A stretch of DNA of 60,876 bases, the filler included, from Candidatus Zapsychrus exili (lineage in GTDB: Bacteria > Omnitrophota > Gorgyraeia > Zapsychrales > Zapsychraceae): the NCBI GenBank assembly GCA_030765585.1. It is 8 parts of 8 records of this genome, joined end to end, with 100 filler letters (N's around TTAATTAATTAA, not from the genome) between each part and the next. Parts side by side here need not be neighbours in the genome. Positions count along the whole stretch, not along the records: positions 35,880 to 49,568 come from JAVCCJ010000026.1; 7 more parts are not named here. One strand, 5' to 3'. A model generated the notes under the pieces. The model did no database searches. It saw nothing but the letters and a program-made list of their open reading frames with translations, and was not told the origin of the DNA. Positions 3,571 to 47,195 of this stretch are shown in pieces. Each line of letters starts with the position of its first letter. Position 1 is the stretch's first letter. The position numbers were made by a program, and so were the translations under genes.

Positions 3571-4866
3571 CTACTCTTCCGCTGTTGGATTTGTGAATTT
3601 TGGACTAAAAACCCCTTCAAAAACACTAACAGGTTTAGTCCCTACAGCATCCTTAACAGCCTTAGCCCGCCACTCTTTGCTTCTCTTTATTGCCTCGAAC
3701 ATAGTGTTATAAGCCCTTTTCTGCGCTTCGGCACGAATTACAATTCCATCTTTTTTAATTTTAATTCCATCAATTTTTGCCGCTAAGTATTTTCTATGTT
3801 CTAAAGAAATGCTGGGATCTCCCATCCCCTTCTCAAGATTTCTCTGTGCTTTGTCTAAATTATCTAAAGTTTCCAGTCCCGCATACGAAGTCAAATACGC
3901 TCTAAATACTATTTCCTTTTCATTTAAAGGCAACAACATTGCGTCTTTCATCCATTCTTTAGTTACTATCAAATCCGGCCGAGAGAGTTTAGCCTGATCC
4001 TCAGAAGTAAACTCTCCCCCATTCTCAAGCTTTCTTATTATTGGATCAAGAACTACCTCTTCTTGCTTTTTTTTAATATCTGCATACATCTGAACTTCAT
4101 CAATTGTTGGCTTCTTCCAGTTTATGGAACCACTACCTTTTATAACAACATCTCCCAAGAGACCAGCTATATAATCTCTTGTTGTGCTACCCACGCCTCC
4201 AGCTTCTTTGCTTTCTAGATATTGTCCTATCACGCTGTATCCTTCTTCTCCACTGCCTATTTGTCCGGAACCTTGATATTTATTTAATCCACTTGCCCAG
4301 TCTTCTTTATTGGCATAATCATTAGTAAGTCTATTTGCTTCTTTTATATCACTTGGATCTTGTTCGCTTCTGTATCTATTACGAGCTATATTTCTAAGAC
4401 TTTGCCCTAAATTTGTCGCGAGTTGTTGTTGTCTTTCACAACTCGCATACTGCATTTCCATGCTCATGTTGCTCATGGCTTTTAGGTGTTTTACGATATC
4501 GGCGAGCGTAGGAGAAATATACTCCAATAAAAGTATGGGTGCGCTGCTAATCGCTCCACCTTTTAAAGCCTCCCAGTAGCGATCAAGCGCCTGCTGATTT
4601 AATGTGTTTTTAAAATTTACTTCCCAATCAAACCTGCCACATCCAGCTTCTACATTTGTATGAATTTCAATTAATTTTTCAGTGGGTTTATATGGCGGCG
4701 CATAATCAATACCACCACGATAAACAAACCCGTCCTTATCTTTGTTGTAATACTGATAATACTCTATATTTGTACTTTTTGCCTCTTCATCGTCCCACAA
4801 ATCCGCAAAAACAGTAGAGCATGAAAAAACGATAATTAGAGTAATAAAACTGATTTTTTTAATCAT
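3571..4866 (-). CDS. integrating conjugative element protein, PFL_4711/TraH-like
   Basis: Signal peptide, GCGRFD motif and later SCE motif as in TraH/PFL_4711-like proteins; upstream of a TraG_N gene. Confidence 0.6.
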   Translation of the reverse strand: MIKKISFITLIIVFSCSTVFADLWDDEEAKSTNIEYYQYYNKDKDGFVYRGGIDYAPPYKPTEKLIEIHTNVEAGCGRFDWEVNFKNTLNQQALDRYWEALKGGAISSAPILLLEYISPTLADIVKHLKAMSNMSMEMQYASCERQQQLATNLGQSLRNIARNRYRSEQDPSDIKEANRLTNDYANKEDWASGLNKYQGSGQIGSGEEGYSVIGQYLESKEAGGVGSTTRDYIAGLLGDVVIKGSGSINWKKPTIDEVQMYADIKKKQEEVVLDPIIRKLENGGEFTSEDQAKLSRPDLIVTKEWMKDAMLLPLNEKEIVFRAYLTSYAGLETLDNLDKAQRNLEKGMGDPSISLEHRKYLAAKIDGIKIKKDGIVIRAEAQKRAYNTMFEAIKRSKEWRAKAVKDAVGTKPVSVFEGVFSPKFTNPTAEE

Positions 4867-5196
4867 TGGCTTTTATCCCTTTATTTTGTTCCTCTGCTTA
4901 TATAACAGATAATCTTTTGATTTTAGACATTTTATTTTCAATTTTTTTTAAAAAATAATATTTAGAACAACTATTAAGAAGGCAAAACCTATACAAATGA
5001 TAAAGAGATGCTAACAAATTCTCTCAGGACCTGGCAGGAAAAAACAACAACTTATGATCTAAAAAAACCTGAGCATGAGCAAGAAAAAGGTATTGANNNN
5101 NNNNNNNNNNNNNNNNNNNNNNNNNNNNNNNNNNNNNNNNTTAATTAATTAANNNNNNNNNNNNNNNNNNNNNNNNNNNNNNNNNNNNNNNNNNNN

Positions 5197-7314
5197 AGAA
5201 TCAATTTAGGTCTAGATTTAAAAGGAGGAATGCATCTTATACTTAGAGTTGACACCCAGAAACTTGACGACAACGCAAAAAGCGATGCTGTACTTCGCGC
5301 TATAGAAATACTTCGAAATCGTATCGATGGTATAGGCGTAGGAGAAACAATCATACAGAGGCAGGGAGAGAATGAAATACTTGTTCAACTTCCTGGCATT
5401 ACTGACCGTGATGCGGCAATTGCAATGGTAGGAAGAGTTGCTCAGCTTGAATTTCGCCTTGTAAGCGATGACGCAAACAAACTAAAAGAAGCTCTTTCAG
5501 GTGCTACTCCAGAAGGATACCTCTTAAAGAAAATCAAAAAGGAAAGCAAAGAACCTATCTTGCTTGAAGATAAGGTAGTCTTAAGCGGCGAAACAATAGC
5601 TGATGCAAGAGTTGATTTTGATACTAGCGGTTTTGGTCAACCTTACATTTCTTTAAAATTTAACTCAAAAGGCGCAAAAACATTTGGCGATGTAACTCGA
5701 GATAATACCGGAAGAAGGCTTGCTATTCTTCTAGACGGCGAAGTTCTTTCGGCTCCAAACATACAAGAAGCCATAATGGGAGGCAGCGCTCAGATTACAG
5801 GACAATTTACTTTTGAAGAAGCATCGCTTCTTTCATTATCACTTCGTTCAGGTGCACTTCCAGCTCCAATGCATATCGAAGAAGAGAGAACCATAGGGCC
5901 GCTTTTAGGAAAAGACTCTATTGACGCAGGAATAAATGCAACAATCATCGGAGGAGCACTAGTAATTATCTTCATGATGCTTTATTACCTTAAAGCAGGT
6001 ATTATATCTAACATAGCTCTTATGCTTAATCTTCTTTTGATATTCGGCATAATGGGATTCTTAAACATGATGCTTCCAGAATCTCAACTAACTTTAACAT
6101 TGCCAGGTATCGCAGGTATCATACTAACGCTTGGTATGGCGGTTGATGCAAACGTTTTAATTAATGAACGTATTCGAGAAGAAATAAACAATGGTCGCCC
6201 TCTACAGGCTTCTATAAATAATGGATTTAATAAAGCATTAAAAGCCATTGTTGATTCAAATTCAACAACGCTTATCGCAGCTTTTATGCTTTTTCAATTT
6301 GGTTCTGGACCTATAAAAGGTTTTGCTGTTACCTTGTCAATTGGTCTTATATCAAGTCTTTTTACAGCATTATTTGTAACACGTACCCTATTTAATGCTT
6401 TTTTTGCAGCTGGTTGGATAAAAAGACTCCCTATGTTAGGACTTCTGCATGATACAAAAATAAATTTTGTATCAAAAAGATTTATATGTTTTGCAATATC
6501 AGCAATTTTAGTTATAGGCAGCCTTTTTGTCTTACACAACAAAAAGAAAGATGCTTACGGAATTGATTTTGTCGGAGGACAAATTCAAGAGTATAGATTT
6601 AATAAGCCTATAGAAGCAGATGCTCTTAGATTGTCTCTAAAAACAAGTGGCGTAGAAGACGCTGCCATACAGCAATTCGATAAAAATCCAGAAAACGTAA
6701 TTATTCGTACAACAGAAGACACTTATGACAAAGTTACTTCAGGATTTAAGAATACATTTCCTGGCAATAACTTTGAAATTCTTAGAATAGAGAAGGTAGG
6801 TCCTGTTGTAGGCGAAGCTCTTAGAAAGCAAGCTATACTTGCTATTGTCTTTGCCTTAGGAGGAATTCTTATTTTCGTAGGATTCAGATTCAAGCATTTC
6901 GACTTTGCAACAGCAGGCGTAATAGCACTTTTGCACGACGTGCTTATAACTCTTGGCATTCTTGTTATGTTTAACAGGCAAATAGACCTGCTCGTTGTAA
7001 CAGCGCTTTTGACAATCGCTGGTTACTCAATCAACGACACAATCATTATATATGATCGCGTAAGAGAGAATTTGACCAAGCAAAGAAAAAGTAGCTTGGC
7101 GGAAATAATAAACATCAGCATAAACGAAACATTAGGAAGAACAATACTTACGACCATCACGACTTTGTTAGTTGTAGTTACGTTGTTCCTTAAAGGCGGA
7201 GAAGTATTAAATACTTTTGCTCTTTGTCTTATAATAGGTTTTATTGCTGGTACATATTCTACAATTTTTATTGCTTCTCCGCTTGTTCTTGCTTGGGAGA
7301 AGAAAAAAAAATAA
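5197..7314 (+). CDS. secDF: protein translocase subunit SecDF fusion (5' truncated by contig edge)
   Basis: Frame open from contig start (RINLGLDLKGG); SecD motifs GMAVDANVLINERIREE and GPIKGFAVTL; SecF motifs GIDFVGG and GYSINDTIIIYDRVRE. Confidence 0.97.
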   Translation, partial: RINLGLDLKGGMHLILRVDTQKLDDNAKSDAVLRAIEILRNRIDGIGVGETIIQRQGENEILVQLPGITDRDAAIAMVGRVAQLEFRLVSDDANKLKEALSGATPEGYLLKKIKKESKEPILLEDKVVLSGETIADARVDFDTSGFGQPYISLKFNSKGAKTFGDVTRDNTGRRLAILLDGEVLSAPNIQEAIMGGSAQITGQFTFEEASLLSLSLRSGALPAPMHIEEERTIGPLLGKDSIDAGINATIIGGALVIIFMMLYYLKAGIISNIALMLNLLLIFGIMGFLNMMLPESQLTLTLPGIAGIILTLGMAVDANVLINERIREEINNGRPLQASINNGFNKALKAIVDSNSTTLIAAFMLFQFGSGPIKGFAVTLSIGLISSLFTALFVTRTLFNAFFAAGWIKRLPMLGLLHDTKINFVSKRFICFAISAILVIGSLFVLHNKKKDAYGIDFVGGQIQEYRFNKPIEADALRLSLKTSGVEDAAIQQFDKNPENVIIRTTEDTYDKVTSGFKNTFPGNNFEILRIEKVGPVVGEALRKQAILAIVFALGGILIFVGFRFKHFDFATAGVIALLHDVLITLGILVMFNRQIDLLVVTALLTIAGYSINDTIIIYDRVRENLTKQRKSSLAEIINISINETLGRTILTTITTLLVVVTLFLKGGEVLNTFALCLIIGFIAGTYSTIFIASPLVLAWEKKKK

Positions 7315-39196: not shown

Positions 39197-39242
39197 AAAA
39201 GGTACCGTACCCCTTTTAGTCAAAAGGGGTACGGTACCTTTT
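39197..39242. terminator. perfect 21-bp inverted repeat (REP-like, probable terminator of the giant gene)
   Basis: AAAAGGTACCGTACCCCTTTT-AGTC-AAAAGGGGTACGGTACCTTTT, 11 nt after the stop. Confidence 0.7.
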
Positions 39243-39253
39243 ACAAATATATC

Positions 39254-41935
39254 TTATGCTTCTTCTTTTATAGCTTCAGATAATTGAATACTATCTGTGT
39301 CATCTTCGCTATCAGAATCATTTACAACATTAAGCCCTAACAATAGCAGTACACTATTTATTGGAGTAATATTAATTATTACAGGAGAAAATCCTTTGAT
39401 ATCCATATTTAACAATGGCTCAAAAGCCTTCGAATCAAAAATAATCTCTCCCCCATCGCCTTCAAAATCCATTTCAATATTGTTTAAATCAATACCACCG
39501 ACTTCATTAAGATTAACGTTAGACAATTGAGTCTCGGTGAGCATGGCTTTATCTGGATCTCTTTCTTCAACAAGCACAAGTATTTCAATCTTAAGATCAG
39601 TATCTTCGCCAGATATCAGAGCTTCGTACTCTATTTGCCGCTCAATAACATATGCATTTTCATGCTTATTTGCTATCTGAAGCGCCCTTTCTCTTAATTC
39701 ATCTACTTGAATATTTTTTTCACCAGTATTTTGCGGTTCACTACCAATATACGCCACCTGAGCTTTAAACAAAATTCTTCCAGGATTACTTGACTCAACT
39801 CGAATTATTTTTGACATTCCTTCCTGAAATTCTACAATACTTGATCCAGGATTTTTAGCTTGAATTTCTTGAGCATAAGCAAATATCTGGCTTTTTTTAC
39901 TTGAAACAGACACTACCCCTTCAAATAAAGTTGCCTTTTCTAAATATCTACCTGCTAATTCCATAAATTGACCAACTAATTTCTTGCCTTCCTTGCCATC
40001 CCAACGCTCACCGTGCTCACCAATATCTCTCAATTTATCACTTACTATCACAACATCATACTCATCTCGACGATTCATTTCTTTAATAGCAGCTGTTGCT
40101 CTTTTTTCTTGTTTTGCAGATGCTGTAGGCATTTCTTTGCTGCGTTCTTTTTGTCTTTCTATCATTTCTCGATAAATAACCTCTTCTCTATTTATATTTC
40201 TTTTAGACATTCGAGATGCTATTTCTTCTTCAGATAGCGGAGCTATAAATATACTATATACTTTATCAGAATAACGATTTCTTAGTAATTGTGCCCAATC
40301 AGCAGAAACTTCAGCAATTGCTTGTTTTCTGCTTTCAACAGCTCTTTTAACATCATCTAAATTAATAGCTTGTAAATCATCGTGAACCGACATAATTACA
40401 AAATTGCCTTTTTGCGCAAGCTTTTGAATTTCTTCTCTTGATCTGAATCTATAATCAACGCCCTCTTTTTCCCCAGGACGCATATCTCGAGATGTATATA
40501 ATACAATTCTTTCAAAAGCATCTGGATAACGCTTTTTAATCTGTTCCCATAAAGGACTTTTGCCTGTCGCTGATGGGCCAGAATACAATATTAATTCCTT
40601 TGCGCTTACCATCGCCTCATCTGTCATCTCGTTAACCAAGTTCATATCAACTGGCGCGATATTTAAAGCTAGTACGAGTGATTGGGTATCAGTGAGTAGG
40701 GCGCTGTCTTCATCCGAAAACTCTTTATCTATTTCTGATGCCAATTTACCAAAAGAATCAGAAATATCTTGCGCATATGCAAGAATTTTATTTAATGAGA
40801 TTTTTCCAACAGTTGTCTTGTAATGCGTCTGATCATGTCTAACAATTTCGTATTCAGTAAAATACACATAATCAGATTTAATAATAAAAGTAATTCTATA
40901 TTCATAATGTACTCCAGCATATTTTGATGAAGCATAGTTAAGATGAAATGGACCAGCTTTTGTATCACCTCTTTCAATAGCTTTTGATAGCTCACTCATC
41001 ATTTCTCTACCTCCAGCCTTTAAAAATTCATTGCCTTTGGAGAAATCCTCAAAAAATCTAATATTTTCACTTTTAAATTCTGCTCTTAAATTTTCTGGAA
41101 GAGCAATGTTTACTTCATCAATTTTTTTATATCCAGTTATATAATATTCTTGTGTTTCTTTCTCTATTACATCAAAATATAATGAATTTTTAGATGGCCT
41201 AAATTGAATAATATACCCACTAGGCAACGATACGTCTTTAAAATCAAAATCTCCATCAAGTATATTCTTAATGCTATTAACTAGCAACGTCATAGGATAT
41301 GAATCTATTGGTTTCTTTATTATCCTCTTTATTTCTACAACAACATCCGATATTACACCTTGTATGCTTTCTTCTTTTTCTTTCTTTAATAGCAAGTTAT
41401 GCATAGCATGCTTTTTAAGATTAGCCTTAAATATTGCAACCTTATCTGCTCCATCTTTTATTCTTAAATATTCATCCCAAGCCTGCGCATTTAACTTAGC
41501 TAATTCATCTAATGTAACCTCCTCACGAATAGCTGCTCCATCTTGTTTTAAAAATGATGCAGATACTTCTGCTAAAAATTCTTTGATATCAATACCATGA
41601 CTAATATCGAACACAGAGTCATCTTCTTCCAAAACTTTACCATCACTATATCCCAGAAGACTTCGACTTCCATCAATTACAACAATATCTCCTGCGCTTA
41701 AATTACGTCCACTTTCTAATTTTATTATATTTTTATCTGCTATAAATCTTGCTGCATTCAAATTAATAAGCGAAGGAATACCTGCCAAACGAGTCAGTAC
41801 GGCTTCGTGCGACGATCCATTACCATAATTTGTAATTAATGCTGATCTTGGATATTCAAAAGCCAGTGATAAAAATTCATCTCTAAAAGAAGATTGCTGA
41901 ATAATTACAAATACAATAGGCTCATTCTTTTCCAT
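39254..41935 (-). CDS. C-terminal part of giant modular protein: phospho-His domain, guanylate kinase domain, GGIDLN tail
   Basis: GSSHEAVLTRLAGIP (PEP-utiliser mobile domain); SGPSATGKS..YTSRDMRPGEKEGVDY (guanylate kinase); GGIDLN near the C-terminus. Confidence 0.8.
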   Translation of the reverse strand: MEKNEPIVFVIIQQSSFRDEFLSLAFEYPRSALITNYGNGSSHEAVLTRLAGIPSLINLNAARFIADKNIIKLESGRNLSAGDIVVIDGSRSLLGYSDGKVLEEDDSVFDISHGIDIKEFLAEVSASFLKQDGAAIREEVTLDELAKLNAQAWDEYLRIKDGADKVAIFKANLKKHAMHNLLLKKEKEESIQGVISDVVVEIKRIIKKPIDSYPMTLLVNSIKNILDGDFDFKDVSLPSGYIIQFRPSKNSLYFDVIEKETQEYYITGYKKIDEVNIALPENLRAEFKSENIRFFEDFSKGNEFLKAGGREMMSELSKAIERGDTKAGPFHLNYASSKYAGVHYEYRITFIIKSDYVYFTEYEIVRHDQTHYKTTVGKISLNKILAYAQDISDSFGKLASEIDKEFSDEDSALLTDTQSLVLALNIAPVDMNLVNEMTDEAMVSAKELILYSGPSATGKSPLWEQIKKRYPDAFERIVLYTSRDMRPGEKEGVDYRFRSREEIQKLAQKGNFVIMSVHDDLQAINLDDVKRAVESRKQAIAEVSADWAQLLRNRYSDKVYSIFIAPLSEEEIASRMSKRNINREEVIYREMIERQKERSKEMPTASAKQEKRATAAIKEMNRRDEYDVVIVSDKLRDIGEHGERWDGKEGKKLVGQFMELAGRYLEKATLFEGVVSVSSKKSQIFAYAQEIQAKNPGSSIVEFQEGMSKIIRVESSNPGRILFKAQVAYIGSEPQNTGEKNIQVDELRERALQIANKHENAYVIERQIEYEALISGEDTDLKIEILVLVEERDPDKAMLTETQLSNVNLNEVGGIDLNNIEMDFEGDGGEIIFDSKAFEPLLNMDIKGFSPVIINITPINSVLLLLGLNVVNDSDSEDDTDSIQLSEAIKEEA

Positions 41936-44900
41936 GAAATTGCGAGCCTGATCTTCGGTAAACTAGATGCCCTTGAAAATCACCTGCAGTAGAAGCCATC
42001 GCCATTGCAAGAGTCTCTATCTCTTTTTTCTTCTTAATCTTATAAACCGCTCTTTCTTTTAGCTTTTCTTGTAGAAACTGAATACGAGACACTGCCTTTA
42101 CCTCTTCTATCGTTTTATTCTCTAATAATTCAGTAATATACGCAATCTCGCCTTGAGGAGAAAAATTAAGATTTCGCGTCTGAAGAAAATAAACCTTCCC
42201 CTGATTCACAACAAACTCAAGTTCTTGCGGCCCTACCTCATCTTCTAATTTAATCTTAGCATCTATTAATTGCCTATAAACTTTCGGATTTATCTCAGAC
42301 AAATCATTAATATTATTTCCTACGCCTCCCAATGTCATTAATTCTTCACCGTTCGCATCTAAAATATACTGCCCAAACATTTTATCTTCATTAGTGTCAG
42401 GATTACGTGTTGAGAAAACTCCAGACATAAAGTTTGTAACGGTTTTTATCAAAGAAGGATCAGAATCATGTGTTGAGAAAACTCCAAATATAAAGTTTGT
42501 AACAGTTTTTATCAAAGAGGGGTCAGGATATTCTTGCTCATTGTATATTTTAGCTTTGGGCGCTTTCCCATCAATCCATTCTTGAATTATGATCGGAAGA
42601 TCATATTTGTCACCCTTCAATGTATTCCTATGTTTCTTTGAAAGACCACTGTTCCATGATTTTGCAACACTTTTAATTGCGCTAAGAATACTCTCAAGTC
42701 CTACATTTGTAATTGTATCGTATCTACCCGGTGCGGATACCTTTGGATTACTTCGAATAGAAAAAGAAGACTTTTTAAGATCAACTCCAGAACGCTCCAA
42801 TTCCACATTAATAAAAGAGACAAACTGCTCTGCTCTTGAGCTATCAAGAATAGTTTTAACAAAATCTTCAGATAAGGCAATGCCAGGAGGATACGCAAGA
42901 CCCAAGCGTTCAAAAATCAAAAAACCCGCTTCCTTATTTCCAAGTGAAACAGAAAAAGGGCTTTTGCCCAGTATCCTGACACCTGAATTAACTATAGATT
43001 CAATATCTTTAACAAATGATGTGCTTTCCTCATTCTTGCCTAAAAGAGCTTTTCTTAATGACGATTTCCCCACAAGCACACAAAACTTCAACAATGAATC
43101 ATATTCTCCAGGAACAACATAAAAATTCTGATAATATTGAGTATAATAATGCTCAGGATTAAAAGAATAATCTCCGACTGTTCCCTCTCGAGCAAAACCT
43201 ACATAAGCCTTTTCTAAATTATAAATATCTGAAATACCAACTTTATATTTTAAGAAATCTGAGAAAGAATCATTATCGATAACGCGCGAATAGCTTTCGC
43301 CATTACTATATCTATCATGTTCATCAATAATAATAATTTCTCCGTGTGGAACATGTCCAAGAGCAAATTTTCTGTCCTTTTCTATGAGAGCTTTAACATG
43401 CAGAGTGTACAACTTAAAAAGAACATGCTGATCAATTTTAAGATTAATCTTGCGTGCAGAGTTAAGAATTTCTACAAAATATCTATCCTTTTTAGGATCA
43501 TAGGCTCCTTTTTTATCACCCAACATAGCCGCATCTACATCTCCATCTTCAGGTCTAATCTCAACCTCAACAGTCGATGACTTGCCAACCTCTGAGCTAT
43601 CAATCCTTTTTGCATTATCAGTTTTCTTAACAATTAGGGCATTGTCTACAGAAACAATTTCCATATAAGCAGGAGTTCCTTCTACTTCTTCATGATAAAT
43701 AATATCAACATTCTTTAAAACTAACACACCATCTTCCTTGTATTTCTGAAGTTCAGGAATTGCATTTAAATCAATCTCTTCATTTGCTTTATTGATAATA
43801 CTTACTTTTCCTGCAAGACGAGCATCTTTTGACTTCACTTTTCCTTCAATTCTTAGAGACTTTAATTCTCTTAATTTTATATGTCCAAATGCATTAATAA
43901 AGTTTTGATATTCTTTCCAATACTCCTTGTCATTAGAATTTTCAATGATTATTTCTGGAGGGACAAGTCCATCCTCAGCATCATTTAACGAGAAATTTAA
44001 ATCAAAATCATAATAATCACTGTAACTTTGTAGCAACATATCAAAGGGATTTTTTACAGGAGTAAAAAATAATGTTCTAGGAATATCTACAAAAAACAAC
44101 GCCCTGTCTAACCCTTTAGATGACAATATCTCTTTCACCTTTGGATTTGTTGTTGTTTGAAAGAACTCATTTAAGTTATGCATTACAGTTCCAATTGCAC
44201 CGTCAATAGGTCTAAAATATCTATCATCTCCTTTATCTTTAAGTTTTTGTGCAAAAGGTTTTTTAATTAAAGTTGGAGAAATAATCTTTAATATTTCTTT
44301 AACATCCTTATATTCATCCAGTTTTTTTAAATCCTCAAATATTTCACTTAAAATTGATTCATTAATGTAAAAAATGTTTGTGTTAAATGGTTGTTTGCCT
44401 TCTTCTCCAATGCCATTTTTTTGTCCAGCAGAATAGAATTCTTCCTCTTGATTCGCTAGGACAGCATCTGCTTTTTCCATCTGAGCAGGAACAAGCACAT
44501 CTTTACCTTCTACTTGAATAATTTTTGCCCCATCTTTTCCACCTTTTTTATCAATTGAAGTTGCAGGAGTCGTCAATTTTACTATCGGTAAATTATTTTT
44601 TATCATCCATCCTGTTATATATTCATCCACACGGCTATTGATATTGTCTCCGTTGTAAAACACTCTGATATGTTTTTCATCGTTTTCTTTAATAGGATCT
44701 TTTATAATATTATACAAAAACAAGAACCCTAATTGTCCATGACCTCCCGGCTGCTTATAATTCAGTCCTTTTCTAAGATTTTTTAAAACTAAACTATTAC
44801 TCTCTTTCTCGAACCAAGGAAGATCTTTTTGTTCTATCATTTCCAGCACTTCAATCCCAACCTGATCTGATTCTAAAATCTCTCTGTATGTTCGTTTTCT

Positions 44901-47195
44901 ACTATTTGTCTTAAGCCTGTCATGAAAATAATCTAATTTATCAAGAAGATCCTTGTAGGAAGCTTTTGATTGCCAATTTACAAGCGGCTGAAGCTTCATT
45001 TTAGAGAATTTATTTTTCTTGGCGATATCAATAAGTTGCAGCAGCTTTGCTTCAGCAACACTTACGAATATCTCTTTTTCCTCTCGTTTAATCATATAAC
45101 CAAGATCTGTCCCCTTAGCTCCCATTTTAATTGAATTGACCTCTTCTTCAGTCAACCCTTCTATTCTTGCTTTATTTTGTAAGAATTTTAAACGATTTAA
45201 AGATTCGCCTATTCCTCCATCCATTGAATTTATCGTAACGATAGCCTGTTTTGCAACTTTTGCGTTTTCTTCGTCAGCTGCAATTTCTGCGTAAGAATAA
45301 GAGCCTAGCAACTTTTTGCGTTCTTCTTCTGTTAACATAGAAGCTAATATAAAATTCTCACCTTCCTTCATGTTCTTTCTATCTAAAACGATTTTTAATT
45401 GTTCTCCCTCTATAGGCATTTGAACCCAAAGATTAGCAAAATATTCTCTATCGGAATTCGAAAATCCATATAATTCTTGAGCCATTTTTAGAATTCTCAA
45501 TTGCTCTGCACTTAAAGCAGGACAAATTTCAATCTTTTCAAAAGCATCAACAGGCTCATACCAAGCCTCTTTTTTATATGTTATAGAGCCTGACTCCCAC
45601 CCAGTATGTCCTTCGGGATGCTGAGACATGACAAAACCTTCTCCCCACGCTTCAGTAACTTCTTCTGCAGGATGATGAATTTGATGCTCATTTCCTTTTT
45701 CATATTTAATTTCAAAACCATACCCTTCTTCTTTAAGCTTTAACGCTTTAGATAAAAATTCTAAAGTTTTTGCTTTTTTGTTATATGGATTTCTTTTAAT
45801 CGTACTTTCTGGAATTTTATCAACAAGCTCATCAAAAGTACTGATAATTTCTTTTACCTCTAAACCTTTTCTATTTCTAAGCACTTCTATTGAAGCAAGT
45901 CGTTTTTCATCGCTTTTCTTCTCATTCAATGCTCTTTTGATATGCCACCCTGTAGGCATGCCCAGCATCGCCTCATCTACATCTTCTTCAGGTCTAATCT
46001 CAACCTCAACAATCGATGACTTGCCAACGCTTGAACTATTAATCCTTTTTGAACTTTCAGTTCTTTTAACTACCATCGCCTGATCTTTGAATCCACCTGA
46101 AAAATATTTCTTCGGAACAATTTGCTTAGACTCTGGGTCGTACTCTTCCCTTATATGATTGTATACACCCTTTTTATAGGCAATCATGTATTGGTTGTAG
46201 ATTTGTTCTGGAGTTGTCATTGCGAGCGTATTTTGCGAAGCAATCTCATTATTGGAGATTGCCGCGTCGGTTTGGTTTTCTGATTGCCTCCTCGCAATGA
46301 CATCAGAAGCTTTAACACCTGCCACCTTATTTTGGTCAATGTATACTTTTGAAAGAATGCTATTTTTAACTTTTTGCTTATACCATTTGGCAAGGATAAG
46401 CGAATGATACATCTGACGTAGTGAGGCAAAATGTTGCCCTTGATTTACTTCTTTTTCTATTTCAGGAATAATTATATTTCTTATTAATTGAACATTAACA
46501 TCTTCTGCTTTGCTATCCGCTAAACGCTGTTCGCTATTCGCTAAATAATCCTTATCAAGCATTACCTTCAATTTTGACTCAACTACATAAACAGTTACGC
46601 CGTTTTCATAAATGGTAGCGCTCTCAGGTAAAATCCAAACCTTATTAAATGTATCTGCAGGTATATTACTAATGCCTTGCTCTTCTGCTTTTGCATAAAT
46701 CGCCTCCCAAAGCTTTTTACCAACCTCTCCCTCAGGATGCATCAAAGATGCTGTTAGCTGTTTTAGGATATAATCTTGAGCTAATAAATCGCGACCTAAC
46801 TCTGTTTTACCTAAAGCATCTGGAACAATGCGATCACGCTCTACTGGAGATAAGTTTACCCACAAATCACCCTTTGGAACTGTCATAGAGGCTAAAAAAT
46901 AATTTACGAGGCGTTTGCTTTCAGTTTTTAGCTCTTCCCCTTCTAGCTTAGAATTTCCATTATCAACAATAAAATCAAACTTAAAAGGATCTTCTAGATG
47001 AACTGTCATGCCTCTTAAGAGAGTTGGAACATATGCAGCGCTTTGTGTAACCATTACGCCTGGCGTAGGCAAGTTAATCACGCTCTGAGCAAAGGACGGC
47101 GAAAGTAATACCGAGCTAAAGACAAGTGTTAAGATTAATAAAGCACAAATGCTCCTATAAACATTATTAGTTTTTCTTGTGGTAAAAATGTTCAT
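41922..47195 (-). CDS. N-terminal part of giant modular secreted protein: head domain, UDPGP-family UGPase, PPDK-like ATP-grasp domain
   Basis: Signal peptide; MDGGIGESL, PGGHG, NGDN, PFNTN, FTPVK (UGPase); LGNK, SIRS..PGRYDT, SGVFSTRNP, ELEF..YFLQTR (PPDK N-domain); frameshift near 41960. Confidence 0.8.
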   Translation of the reverse strand: MNIFTTRKTNNVYRSICALLILTLVFSSVLLSPSFAQSVINLPTPGVMVTQSAAYVPTLLRGMTVHLEDPFKFDFIVDNGNSKLEGEELKTESKRLVNYFLASMTVPKGDLWVNLSPVERDRIVPDALGKTELGRDLLAQDYILKQLTASLMHPEGEVGKKLWEAIYAKAEEQGISNIPADTFNKVWILPESATIYENGVTVYVVESKLKVMLDKDYLANSEQRLADSKAEDVNVQLIRNIIIPEIEKEVNQGQHFASLRQMYHSLILAKWYKQKVKNSILSKVYIDQNKVAGVKASDVIARRQSENQTDAAISNNEIASQNTLAMTTPEQIYNQYMIAYKKGVYNHIREEYDPESKQIVPKKYFSGGFKDQAMVVKRTESSKRINSSSVGKSSIVEVEIRPEEDVDEAMLGMPTGWHIKRALNEKKSDEKRLASIEVLRNRKGLEVKEIISTFDELVDKIPESTIKRNPYNKKAKTLEFLSKALKLKEEGYGFEIKYEKGNEHQIHHPAEEVTEAWGEGFVMSQHPEGHTGWESGSITYKKEAWYEPVDAFEKIEICPALSAEQLRILKMAQELYGFSNSDREYFANLWVQMPIEGEQLKIVLDRKNMKEGENFILASMLTEEERKKLLGSYSYAEIAADEENAKVAKQAIVTINSMDGGIGESLNRLKFLQNKARIEGLTEEEVNSIKMGAKGTDLGYMIKREEKEIFVSVAEAKLLQLIDIAKKNKFSKMKLQPLVNWQSKASYKDLLDKLDYFHDRLKTNSRKRTYREILESDQVGIEVLEMIEQKDLPWFEKESNSLVLKNLRKGLNYKQPGGHGQLGFLFLYNIIKDPIKENDEKHIRVFYNGDNINSRVDEYITGWMIKNNLPIVKLTTPATSIDKKGGKDGAKIIQVEGKDVLVPAQMEKADAVLANQEEEFYSAGQKNGIGEEGKQPFNTNIFYINESILSEIFEDLKKLDEYKDVKEILKIISPTLIKKPFAQKLKDKGDDRYFRPIDGAIGTVMHNLNEFFQTTTNPKVKEILSSKGLDRALFFVDIPRTLFFTPVKNPFDMLLQSYSDYYDFDLNFSLNDAEDGLVPPEIIIENSNDKEYWKEYQNFINAFGHIKLRELKSLRIEGKVKSKDARLAGKVSIINKANEEIDLNAIPELQKYKEDGVLVLKNVDIIYHEEVEGTPAYMEIVSVDNALIVKKTDNAKRIDSSEVGKSSTVEVEIRPEDGDVDAAMLGDKKGAYDPKKDRYFVEILNSARKINLKIDQHVLFKLYTLHVKALIEKDRKFALGHVPHGEIIIIDEHDRYSNGESYSRVIDNDSFSDFLKYKVGISDIYNLEKAYVGFAREGTVGDYSFNPEHYYTQYYQNFYVVPGEYDSLLKFCVLVGKSSLRKALLGKNEESTSFVKDIESIVNSGVRILGKSPFSVSLGNKEAGFLIFERLGLAYPPGIALSEDFVKTILDSSRAEQFVSFINVELERSGVDLKKSSFSIRSNPKVSAPGRYDTITNVGLESILSAIKSVAKSWNSGLSKKHRNTLKGDKYDLPIIIQEWIDGKAPKAKIYNEQEYPDPSLIKTVTNFIFGVFSTHDSDPSLIKTVTNFMSGVFSTRNPDTNEDKMFGQYILDANGEELMTLGGVGNNINDLSEINPKVYRQLIDAKIKLEDEVGPQELEFVVNQGKVYFLQTRNLNFSPQGEIAYITELLENKTIEEVKAVSRIQFLQEKLKERAVYKIKKKKEIETLAMAMASTAGDFQGHLVYRRSGSQFHGKE
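46215..46302. repeat. palindromic element, copy 3, inside the giant gene without breaking the frame
   Basis: Same termini as the 35900 and 37444 copies; read as VIARRQ...AIS..EIAS...LAMT. Confidence 0.8.

What the first reader, a model, noticed from the sequence alone, without database searches (positions are those of the whole stretch)
39254..47195. Giant secreted polyprotein carrying cytoplasmic enzymes between repeated D-x-A-M/L linkers
Seen: signal peptide and head domain, then unrelated modules (unknown, UDPGP-family UGPase, unknown, PPDK-like ATP-grasp plus phospho-His domain without the pyruvate barrel, unknown, guanylate kinase, unknown) and a GGIDLN tail. Module edges carry DQAM, DEAM, DNAL, DAAM, DSAL, DEAM and DKAM (about 46080, 45970, 43640, 43530, 40700, 40615, 39548). 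Known: these enzymes act on cytoplasmic nucleotides and sugars, and giant genes are reported in Omnitrophota, many thought to be host-dependent or predatory. Inference: a head/tail-defined export system delivering a string of metabolic effectors, released by cleavage at the motif.
Basis: partly seen in the sequence, partly recalled or inferred. Interest (0 to 1): 0.8.

Follow-up and report, generated by a model that had tools for sequence, protein, structure and literature searches.

The report
Clasped, punctuated enzyme polyprotein of Omnitrophota
This is a frameshifted copy of a huge, unnamed family of exported bacterial proteins whose fixed front and back ends are predicted to clasp each other around a swappable string of whole cytoplasmic enzymes separated by a short genome-specific signal, giving exact candidate cut sites for testing whether these host-dependent bacteria deliver enzymes into other cells.

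Summary
Real, with two corrections. The region is two reading frames (1,757 + 893 aa); a frameshift splits the phospho-His domain that is continuous in 4 of 4 homologues. The seven motifs mark four junctions around three cargo units, not seven module edges. The gene is one of about 17 paralogues (5% of the genome) with signal peptide, conserved head, unrelated cargo and GGIDxN tail; two paralogues carry most of glycolysis. D-x-A-M is 31-fold enriched; 0 of 31 internal junctions (7.9 expected) and 0 of 90 in relatives (15.1 expected) fall inside Pfam domains. Other genomes use SSP or DGG instead. All 4 Tat-like signals found in cargo start right after a motif. Cargo has about a tenth of normal cysteine. 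The head folds confidently (pLDDT 90) with no fold match, and the tail is predicted to dock on the head's invariant residues (0.81 versus control 0.01). Best reading: Sec-exported, head-tail-clasped polyprotein, cut at the motif by an unidentified trans-acting protease, cargo aimed at a host cell. Cleavage, protease and destination are inferred.

The parts
47088..47195 (-). Sec-type signal peptide, residues 1-36, predicted cut S-F-A|Q
   Evidence: Basic N-region plus the only hydrophobic stretch of P0001; a small residue at -3 before [A/G]Q in 15 of 16 paralogue heads. Predicted, not shown.
46092..47087 (-). Conserved head domain (332 aa), no family or fold match; predicted receptor for the tail
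   Evidence: Alignments; model pLDDT 90; no fold match; complex with tail 0.81 vs control 0.01
46215..46301 (-). 87-nt hairpin repeat element inserted in frame in a head loop
   Evidence: Folds as a stem-loop; 20 blastn pieces in the genome; loop is low-confidence in the model
45966..46085 (-). Junction 1: DQAM - 32-aa spacer - DEAM
   Evidence: a D-x-A-[ML] follows the head in 16 of 16 full heads of the genome
43647..45965 (-). Cargo unit 1: 146-aa unknown domain plus UDPGP-family (eukaryote-type) UDP-glucose pyrophosphorylase
   Evidence: PF01704; UDP-glucose pyrophosphorylase structures E 7e-6; 11 homologues at 34-50% identity
43524..43646 (-). Junction 2: DNAL - spacer - DAAM, a DNA copy of junction 1
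   Evidence: 86-nt direct repeat, 87% identical, 43546-43631 and 45985-46070
40709..43523 (-). Cargo unit 2: dikinase-like unit (unknown N-part, PPDK-type ATP-grasp, phospho-His domain, no pyruvate barrel) plus about 210 aa unknown; split by the frameshift
   Evidence: intact homologues P0153-P0156; same cassette inside a 33,383-aa frame of G151
41922..41962 (-). Frameshift between the two ORFs, inside the phospho-His domain
   Evidence: Three-frame translation; homologues continuous; no indel listed in the contigs of two runs, covering contig not displayed
42397..42522 (.). 63-nt in-frame tandem duplication inside the ATP-grasp domain
40610..40708 (-). Junction 3: DSAL - spacer - DEAM
39554..40609 (-). 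Cargo unit 3: guanylate-kinase-like domain plus 124-aa unknown domain
   Evidence: PF00625 E 3e-20; TIGR03263 below equivalog cut-off; 27% identical to the genome's own Gmk
39542..39553 (-). Junction 4: DKAM before the tail
   Evidence: A D-x-A-[ML] lies within 25 aa before GGID in 14 of 16 tails of the genome
39254..39541 (-). Conserved tail: GGIDLN (39499-39482), beta-segment, G-F-x-P-V-I-I segment, acidic end
   Evidence: Alignment of 97 tails; no Pfam family; predicted to dock on the head
39197..39242 (-). Intrinsic-terminator-like hairpin, 21-nt perfect arms

Best explanation
A member (now probably a pseudogene) of an Omnitrophota family of exported polyproteins built on a fixed chassis. 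Step 1 (strongly inferred): the signal peptide sends the unfolded chain through Sec and is removed. Step 2 (predicted): the tail, which emerges last, docks its GGIDLN segment into a groove of invariant head residues, so that head and tail form one unit and the cargo loops out; this clasp can exist only for a complete chain and is the likely handle for the next export or assembly step, perhaps through one of the genome's secretin channels (guess). Step 3 (shown as a pattern, inferred as a mechanism): a short motif that all paralogues of one genome share, D-x-A-M here, marks the start and end of every complete cargo protein, and is read by a factor encoded elsewhere, most simply a protease cutting near D-x-A|M, which frees units with ordinary-looking N-termini. 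Step 4 (inferred): the freed units are cytoplasm-type enzymes that need ATP, NAD or sugar phosphates, and some carry their own Tat or Sec signals, so their working place is most likely the cytoplasm of an attached host or prey cell, where they redirect sugar and nucleotide metabolism. The repertoire turns over by cassette recombination at the junction spacers and by gene decay.
For: Chassis: 17 heads and 16 tails in the genome; head in 26 of 201 sampled phylum genomes; 8,375 clusters at 50% identity. Cargo varies: only 2 cargo pairs among the paralogues align at E<=1e-5. Motif: 31-fold enriched; 293 vs 15.7 expected in 150 independent representatives; 0 of 31 and 0 of 90 internal junctions inside Pfam spans, 7.9 and 15.1 expected; whole enzymes bracketed within 1-20 aa (PGK, enolase, PFK, PGI end, HATPase end, Gmk) and multi-domain enzymes never split. 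Trans-acting reader: motif differs by genome (D-x-A-M/Q, S-S-P/A-h, D-G-G) and is nearly exclusive per protein (87 vs 14 vs 1 both, 48 neither, of 150); the first Ser of SSP uses TCN 73 and AGY 34 times, so selection is on the residue. New N-termini: 4 of 4 Tat-like signals in 300 cargo regions start within 11 aa after a motif (background 5.6% within 25 aa); 17 of 59 hydrophobic segments within 40 aa (background 8.3%). Export: cysteine 0.10% vs 1.23%; cargo vs housekeeping Cys 0/2, 0/2, 2/6, 1/5, 0/3, 0/2, 1/14, with only the catalytic Cys kept in both GAPDH copies. Clasp: score 0.81, best of 3 controls 0.01; the mark was reached by 116 of 157 solved complexes and 2 of 215 mismatched pairs; runs agree in at least 59% of contacts, partner pLDDT at least 50; best contacts join head W76, D105, W151, I152 (invariant or nearly so) to tail I25-L27. 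The shortest tails (families f27, f17) keep just this segment.
Against: No cleavage, expression or localisation data exist here. No protease or secretion gene is conserved beside the family, and the head has no invariant His or Cys, so the cutter is unidentified. Three domain edges in this copy lack the motif; 48 of 150 representatives have fewer than two copies of either main motif; several genomes show no clear motif. Codons flanking the Met are biased (GCG 28 of 81 vs 86 of 570; GTG 18 of 31 vs 61 of 587), which a pure protease site does not explain. Signal peptides after a motif also fit whole-gene capture, or cutting in the producer's own cytoplasm (TatC is present). The host of this organism is unknown; no contractile sheath gene was found, so no route into a host cell is identified. 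This copy is frameshifted.
Confidence: 0.45

Rival explanations
1. Same export, clasp and cutting, but the enzymes work in the producer's own periplasm, surface coat or contact zone with a lysed prey cell (an external glycolysis or scavenging compartment), not inside a living host.
For: Two paralogues carry an ordered, nearly complete sugar pathway: UDPGP-PFK-PGI-PGM and GAPDH x2-PGK-enolase-aldolase, which suits catabolism of leaked substrates. No injection machine found. West-Roberts 2023 proposes surface degradation feeding glycolysis (passage).
Against: These enzymes need ATP, ADP and NAD, normally absent outside a cytoplasm (general knowledge). Regulatory cargo (HTH arrays, histidine-kinase ATPases, response regulators, PP2C, RpoA C-terminal-like domain) and Tat-signal units make sense only in a cytoplasm.
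Confidence: 0.2
2. The chain is not cut. The motif is a binding, modification or translocation-pause mark between domains, and the protein works as one tethered multi-enzyme loop closed by the head-tail clasp, possibly anchored by the hydrophobic end of the tail.
For: No protease identified. Tail end is moderately hydrophobic (KD 1.87). Rarer codons flank the Met. Pathway-ordered cargo would profit from tethering.
Against: Tat signals directly after the motif need a free N-terminus. Paired motifs around disposable 20-40-aa spacers and the motif just before the tail look like excision sites. The three motif types share no modifiable residue.
Confidence: 0.2
3. The motif is the protein shadow of a DNA site or of repeatedly copied linker DNA used for cassette shuffling, with no role at protein level.
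For: Synonymous bias at the codons flanking ATG; an 86-nt, 87%-identical direct repeat brackets cargo unit 1; concerted copying could explain genome-specific motifs.
Against: Both Ser codon families are used within single genomes; D-x-A-M persists in genomes with GC3 0.34-0.59 with all four Ala codons; conservation is confined to about six codons and always in one frame.
Confidence: 0.08
4. The chain is cut in the producer's cytoplasm like a viral polyprotein; only the head is exported and each unit is then sorted by its own signals.
For: Cytoplasm-type cargo; internal Tat-like signals; the genome has TatC.
Against: Cysteine loss over the whole cargo; the tail has no export signal yet is predicted to bind the exported head; housekeeping copies of the same enzymes are kept.
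Confidence: 0.07

Closest known systems
Omnitrophota giant multi-enzyme proteins ('Archaeovorins', West-Roberts et al. 2023, bioRxiv 10.1101/2023.11.21.568195; 'multi-enzyme metabolic clusters', Nielsen and Lui 2026, 10.64898/2026.06.07.730766; giant ORFs in PMC10066038)
   Same: Same phylum; strings of unrelated metabolic and regulatory enzymes behind an export signal; cleavage proposed in print. The dikinase cassette of this gene also sits in a 33,383-aa frame of G151, bracketed there by TNAAVL and SNAAVL, and this genome's own 9,937-aa giant has 6 D-x-A-M.
   Different: Published giants are 10,000 aa or more, mostly with many membrane helices, SecA-like and C39/S8 domains. This family is about 0.8-5 kaa, lacks those, and has a fixed head and docking tail. 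The 2023 preprint states that cleavage points are unknown; the 2026 text has no 'motif', 'cleav' or 'linker'.
MARTX toxins (abstract of PMC4453568 and search listing)
   Same: Works-like match: conserved N- and C-terminal regions flank a variable string of effector domains; both ends are needed for secretion and delivery; units are released by proteolysis.
   Different: No RTX or MARTX repeats, no built-in cysteine protease domain in Pfam scans, a Sec signal instead of type I secretion, metabolic enzymes as cargo, no homology.
Gingipain/HagA polyproteins and T9SS C-terminal domain cargo (recalled, not from a call)
   Same: Sec signal, polyprotein, short conserved C-terminal domain of similar size, processing at linkers.
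   Different: Tail matches no T9SS CTD model; it is predicted to bind the protein's own head; cargo is cytoplasm-type.
Viral polyproteins with consensus protease junctions; HCF-1 N/C self-association after cleavage; inteins (all recalled, not from a call)
   Same: Short junction consensus between complete proteins; N- and C-terminal parts that co-fold around an insert.
   Different: Bacterial, exported, multi-copy, no encoded protease, motif changes by genome; no sequence or fold similarity found.

Membership tests
Archaeovorin-type giant proteins | Length of 10,000 aa or more (30,000 in the 2023 set) | tested here: not met
   1,757 + 893 aa; family members 0.4-4.9 kaa
Archaeovorin-type giant proteins | Numerous transmembrane helices | tested here: not met
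   One hydrophobic stretch at each end by hydropathy scan
Archaeovorin-type giant proteins | SecA-like and C39/S8 peptidase domains | tested here: not met
   None in Pfam scans of 2 + 23 + 19 proteins; the genome's only C39 hit is in its 9,937-aa giant
Archaeovorin-type giant proteins | String of unrelated sugar-metabolism and regulatory enzyme domains | tested here: met
   cassette shared with a giant
MARTX toxins | Conserved ends flanking variable effector cassettes | tested here: met
   Architecture only
MARTX toxins | Gly-rich terminal repeats and type I secretion without signal peptide | tested here: not met
   No such repeats; N-terminal signal peptide present
MARTX toxins | Built-in C80 cysteine protease domain | tested here: not met
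   No Pfam hit in the proteins; the protein has no Cys after residue 1,400; the genome-wide search had no positive control and is not counted
T9SS cargo (gingipain type) | C-terminal Por secretion domain | tested here: not met
   0 of 97 tails match such a model at E<=0.1
T9SS cargo (gingipain type) | T9SS machinery in the genome | tested here: inconclusive
   SprA_N search rang in no control genome
Autotransporter / two-partner secretion passenger | C-terminal beta-barrel or cognate TpsB | tested here: inconclusive
   No barrel domain in the protein; ShlB search rang in no control; one Omp85 gene
PEP-CTERM / exosortase substrates | Motif, membrane helix and basic cluster at the C-terminus, with exosortase | tested here: not met
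   Tail ends acidic; no exosortase found in the 96%-complete genome, one control rang
Pyruvate, phosphate dikinase (cargo unit 2) | ATP-grasp and phospho-His domains | tested here: met
   residues matching the recalled catalytic Lys, Arg, Glu, Gln-x-Arg and His are present in the sequence
Pyruvate, phosphate dikinase (cargo unit 2) | C-terminal pyruvate-binding TIM barrel | tested here: not met
   No hit; TIGR01828 score 88 vs cut-off 843
Protease-processed polyprotein | Demonstrated cleavage at the junctions | not testable with these tools
   Needs proteomics

The most novel reading that the evidence does not exclude
An undescribed bacterial protein-delivery system: a new-fold head and a C-terminal peptide clasp shut around any string of captured genes, the loop is exported, and a genome-specific protease code releases whole cytoplasmic enzymes and even pre-proteins with their own Tat or Sec signals inside a host cell, so that a 2-Mb epibiont installs its own glycolysis, nucleotide kinases and regulators in its prey.
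Probability: 0.3. Interest if true: 0.95.

Novelty: categorically new. Interest (0 to 1): 0.77.

Why it matters
Whether the very long Omnitrophota proteins are cut, and where, is an open question in print: West-Roberts 2023 says the lack of cleavage points blocked analysis. The motif gives exact sites to look for in proteomes and to test in vitro, and it splits thousands of unannotated long proteins into enzyme-sized units. The predicted head-tail clasp supplies a first concrete job for a domain with 8,375 sequence clusters and no fold match, and can be tested with one purified domain and one peptide. About 5% of this small genome is spent on the family, including most of glycolysis in duplicate, so it probably bears on how these widespread, mostly uncultured, probably host-dependent bacteria live.

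Tried and rejected
Internal translation starts at the motif's Met: rejected; Shine-Dalgarno 4-mers precede 9% of 81 motif ATGs, 10% of 544 other internal ATGs and 44% of 404 first ATGs. Head as an autoprotease: no invariant His or Cys among 146 heads; not excluded for other chemistries. Fold searches: the first head model (16 sequences, pLDDT 60) and the good model gave no Foldseek hit at E<=0.001; best VIA Z 4.0 among 48,161 chains; this absence does not prove a new fold. Atlas searches gave only hypothetical proteins or nothing usable. NCBIfam: nothing for head, tail or the three unknown domains. Head-tail covariation on 165 pairs (Neff 110): inconclusive; top scores equal shuffled ones, 2 of the top 20 pairs in the predicted interface vs 0-1 in 10 shuffles. 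Conserved neighbours: none; the best cluster among 1,027 ORFs from 50 genomes was response regulators (11 genomes), DegP-like proteases 5. Protease and secretion inventory: one signal peptidase I, C39 only in the giant, 7 secretin genes, one Omp85, TatC; no exosortase, S8 or sheath found; C80, SprA and ShlB searches had no ringing control and show nothing. Reads: two DNA runs, contigs only, depth about 3-5; no indel listed at the frameshift but the covering contig was not displayed; no RNA holder listed. The first background break count was swamped by shadow ORFs and was redone. The motif contexts printed for G141, G079, G151 and G091 head-family members were mis-indexed and are not used. Bacteroidetes-type O-glycosylation sequon D-S/T-x (recalled): rejected, only 4 of 81 sites have Ser at x. 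Literature searches with no relevant paper: (0 hits).
Full report
What is there. The window is several contigs joined by N runs; the finding lies on one 13.7-kb contig (C119) of a 2.04-Mb, 34% GC, 96%-complete genome. The stretch 47195-39254 is two ORFs on the minus strand, 1,757 aa and 893 aa, in different frames. The first ends inside the phospho-His domain of a PPDK-like unit and the other frame continues it. Four homologues found with the second frame match both pieces end to end with no gap, so this is one gene with a frameshift. A perfect 21-nt hairpin follows the last stop. The neighbours (a CmoB-type methyltransferase, glycerol kinase and an FAD oxidoreductase) are unrelated.

Is the break real? 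Contigs of two public DNA runs cover the region at depth about 3-5 and list no indel there, but the covering contig was not displayed and one run may be the source, so this is not decisive. Six family loci in this genome are broken (C119, C83 and C73 by frameshifts, C39 and C67 by in-frame stops, C13 cut short) in about 104 kb, against one frameshift and no stop in 270 kb of ordinary genes probed with relatives' proteins (p 0.002). I read this as decay in a fast-turning repertoire and put about 0.7 on this copy being a pseudogene.

The family. The head finds 16 full copies and one contig-end partial in the genome, the tail 16; together about 5% of the genome. Cargo is almost wholly different between paralogues: 2 cargo pairs align at E<=1e-5. 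One paralogue carries GAPDH twice, PGK, enolase and a class II aldolase, another UDPGP, PFK, PGI and PGM; triosephosphate isomerase and phosphoglycerate mutase were not seen among this genome's cargo. Separate housekeeping copies are kept at 25-36% identity. A profile finds 8,375 clusters at 50% identity. The assignment of this genome to Omnitrophota rests on those titles and on earlier scan notes.

The motif. D-x-A-M occurs 81 times in 32,364 aa of family ORFs and 42 times in 518,246 aa of other ORFs; the consensus is D-[KNQE]-A-M-[VLIM]-[ATS]-[ED]. It follows 16 of 16 full heads and precedes 14 of 16 tails within 25 aa. In the 13 family ORFs with Pfam hits, 0 of 57 copies lie in a hit (13.3 expected), and 0 of 128 in 16 of 19 scanned relatives that had hits (19.7 expected); after removing sites next to head and tail and merging pairs, 0 of 31 and 0 of 90 (7.9 and 15.1 expected). 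Pfam reported only the best stretch per family, so domain cover is understated. Complete enzymes are bracketed closely (PGK 15 and 13 aa, enolase start 19, PFK start 20, PGI end 16, Gmk start 9), while N- and C-domains of one enzyme are never separated. In this gene the seven motifs form four junctions and three units; three inner domain edges have none. Junction 2 is an 87%-identical DNA copy of junction 1, which points to cassette gain by recombination.

The motif is genome-specific. With the same head and tail, other genomes favour S-S-P/A-hydrophobic (G157 17 vs 1.4 expected, G143 15 vs 0.5) or D-G-G (G179 16 vs 2), and many keep D-x-A-M/Q (DATDQB 27 vs 1.4, JAJDCA 15 vs 1.0); several show none. 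Among 150 representatives, 87 have at least two D-x-A-[MQ] only, 14 at least two SS[PA]h only, 1 both, 48 neither. The dikinase cassette of this gene also lies in a 33,383-aa frame of G151, bracketed by TNAAVL and SNAAVL, and ends at DNAL in G205. Ser codons of both families are used within single genomes, so the residue is selected. Against a pure protein reading, the codons on either side of the ATG are biased; I cannot explain this beyond linker copying. Internal translation starts are rejected. All 4 Tat-like signals found in 300 cargo regions begin 1-11 aa after a motif, for example DRAM-MTRRNFL, and 17 of 59 hydrophobic segments begin within 40 aa after one, against backgrounds of 5.6% and 8.3%. 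That is what new N-termini would give, though capture of whole genes would too.

Export. The N-terminus is a typical Sec signal. Family proteins have 0.10% Cys against 1.23% in other ORFs and 0.086% in the representatives' cargo; each of seven cargo enzymes has fewer Cys than its housekeeping counterpart, and both GAPDH copies keep only the catalytic one. This supports both passage out of the cytoplasm and selection for activity. The genome has seven secretin genes, one Omp85, one signal peptidase I and TatC; none is a conserved neighbour.

Head and tail. With 146 sequences the head folds at pLDDT 90, pTM 0.89, with no Foldseek match and a best Z of 4.0; its invariant residues include no His or Cys. 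The complex prediction of head with tail scored 0.81 (runs 0.81, 0.84, 0.77), best of 3 controls 0.01; the mark was reached by 116 of 157 solved complexes and 2 of 215 mismatched pairs, counts that hold only roughly with my alignments; runs agree in at least 59% of contacts and the partner's pLDDT is at least 50. The surest contacts join head W76, D105, W151 and I152 with tail I25-L27 of GGIDLN, so the invariant residues of both ends meet. No like complex is known to me and no solved head homologue was found, so recall is unlikely. The shortest tails in distant families keep only GG[IL][DL]L and about ten residues, the docking part. My covariation check was underpowered. This is a model, not a measurement.

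Mechanism. Shown: chassis, variable cargo, boundary motif, genome specificity, cysteine loss, frameshift. Predicted: signal cleavage, head-tail clasp. Inferred: cutting at the motif by a factor in trans (about 0.65), delivery to a host cytoplasm (about 0.45 overall). Rivals are work in the producer's periplasm or contact zone, an uncut tethered chain, a DNA-level scar, and cutting in the producer's cytoplasm.

Known and new. Papers seen: West-Roberts 2023 (passages; section 7), Nielsen and Lui 2026 (abstract, sections 8 and 21, passages), Seymour 2023 PMC10066038 (passages), PMC4453568 (abstract). They describe giant multi-enzyme proteins and propose cleavage, but the text I saw names no junction motif, this head or this tail; bioRxiv supplements were closed and could bear on that. 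Searches for a description gave nothing; most subscription journals are not covered. It works like a MARTX-type modular carrier but fails membership there and in the other families tested. The scan's earlier notes already report the family, the D-x-A-M motif, its genome-specific variants, cysteine loss and an internal Tat signal on other genomes; I reached the per-genome motif result before reading those on motifs, and took the cysteine and Tat tests from them as leads. I rate the system categorically new as a chassis and code, with the delivery step unproven and this copy probably dead.

Noticed in passing
L010:5984-14956 (+) and L011:1-9519 (-) (G000 C80, C83): Two paralogues carry most of glycolysis as motif-delimited units: GAPDH x2, PGK, enolase, aldolase; UDPGP, PFK, PGI, PGM. 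The second has a double frameshift just after the motif before PGM.
   Followed up: partly
window 46215-46301: 87-nt hairpin repeat inserted in frame in a head loop; also in heads of C34 and C43 and at other places in the genome (20 blastn pieces); Rickettsia-palindrome-like behaviour already noted by the scan.
   Followed up: partly
window 42397-42522: 63-nt in-frame tandem duplication inside the ATP-grasp domain; may impair the enzyme.
   Followed up: no
L140:1-3963 (G151 C5): A 33,383-aa frame holds the same barrel-less dikinase cassette between TNAAVL and SNAAVL: cassettes move between this family and true giants. The acceptor of this dikinase type is unknown.
   Followed up: partly
G000 C24:37451-67261: The genome's 9,937-aa giant has 6 D-x-A-M, clustered at 3932-6263, some apparently inside repeats rather than at clear junctions, and the only C39 hit.
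   Followed up: partly
L045:626-5983, L033:187-5121: Internal copies of the tail start (GGID[LF]) followed by a motif occur inside cargo regions, as if chains grow by recombining at an old tail.
   Followed up: no
L047-L056 (family f18) and L045, L046, L057-L059 (f27, f17): Tail variants: f18 adds a helical domain of about 100 aa after GGIDF; f27 and f17 end about 10 residues after the GG motif.
   Followed up: no
motif codons, genome-wide and in relatives: Unexplained synonymous bias: GCG before and GTG after the ATG; TCG-CCG in SSP; GAC-GGC in DGG.
   Followed up: partly
L008:4380-5950 (G000 C67): A secretin gene split into two frames lies right after a family member.
   Followed up: no
L065:9866-20947, L095:2-7198: Relatives carry isocitrate lyase, malate synthase, class I aldolase and triosephosphate isomerase as cargo.
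   Followed up: no
L001:1-470: A paralogue (C13:472-3654) stops without a tail at an opposite-strand ORF, probably an insertion.
   Followed up: no
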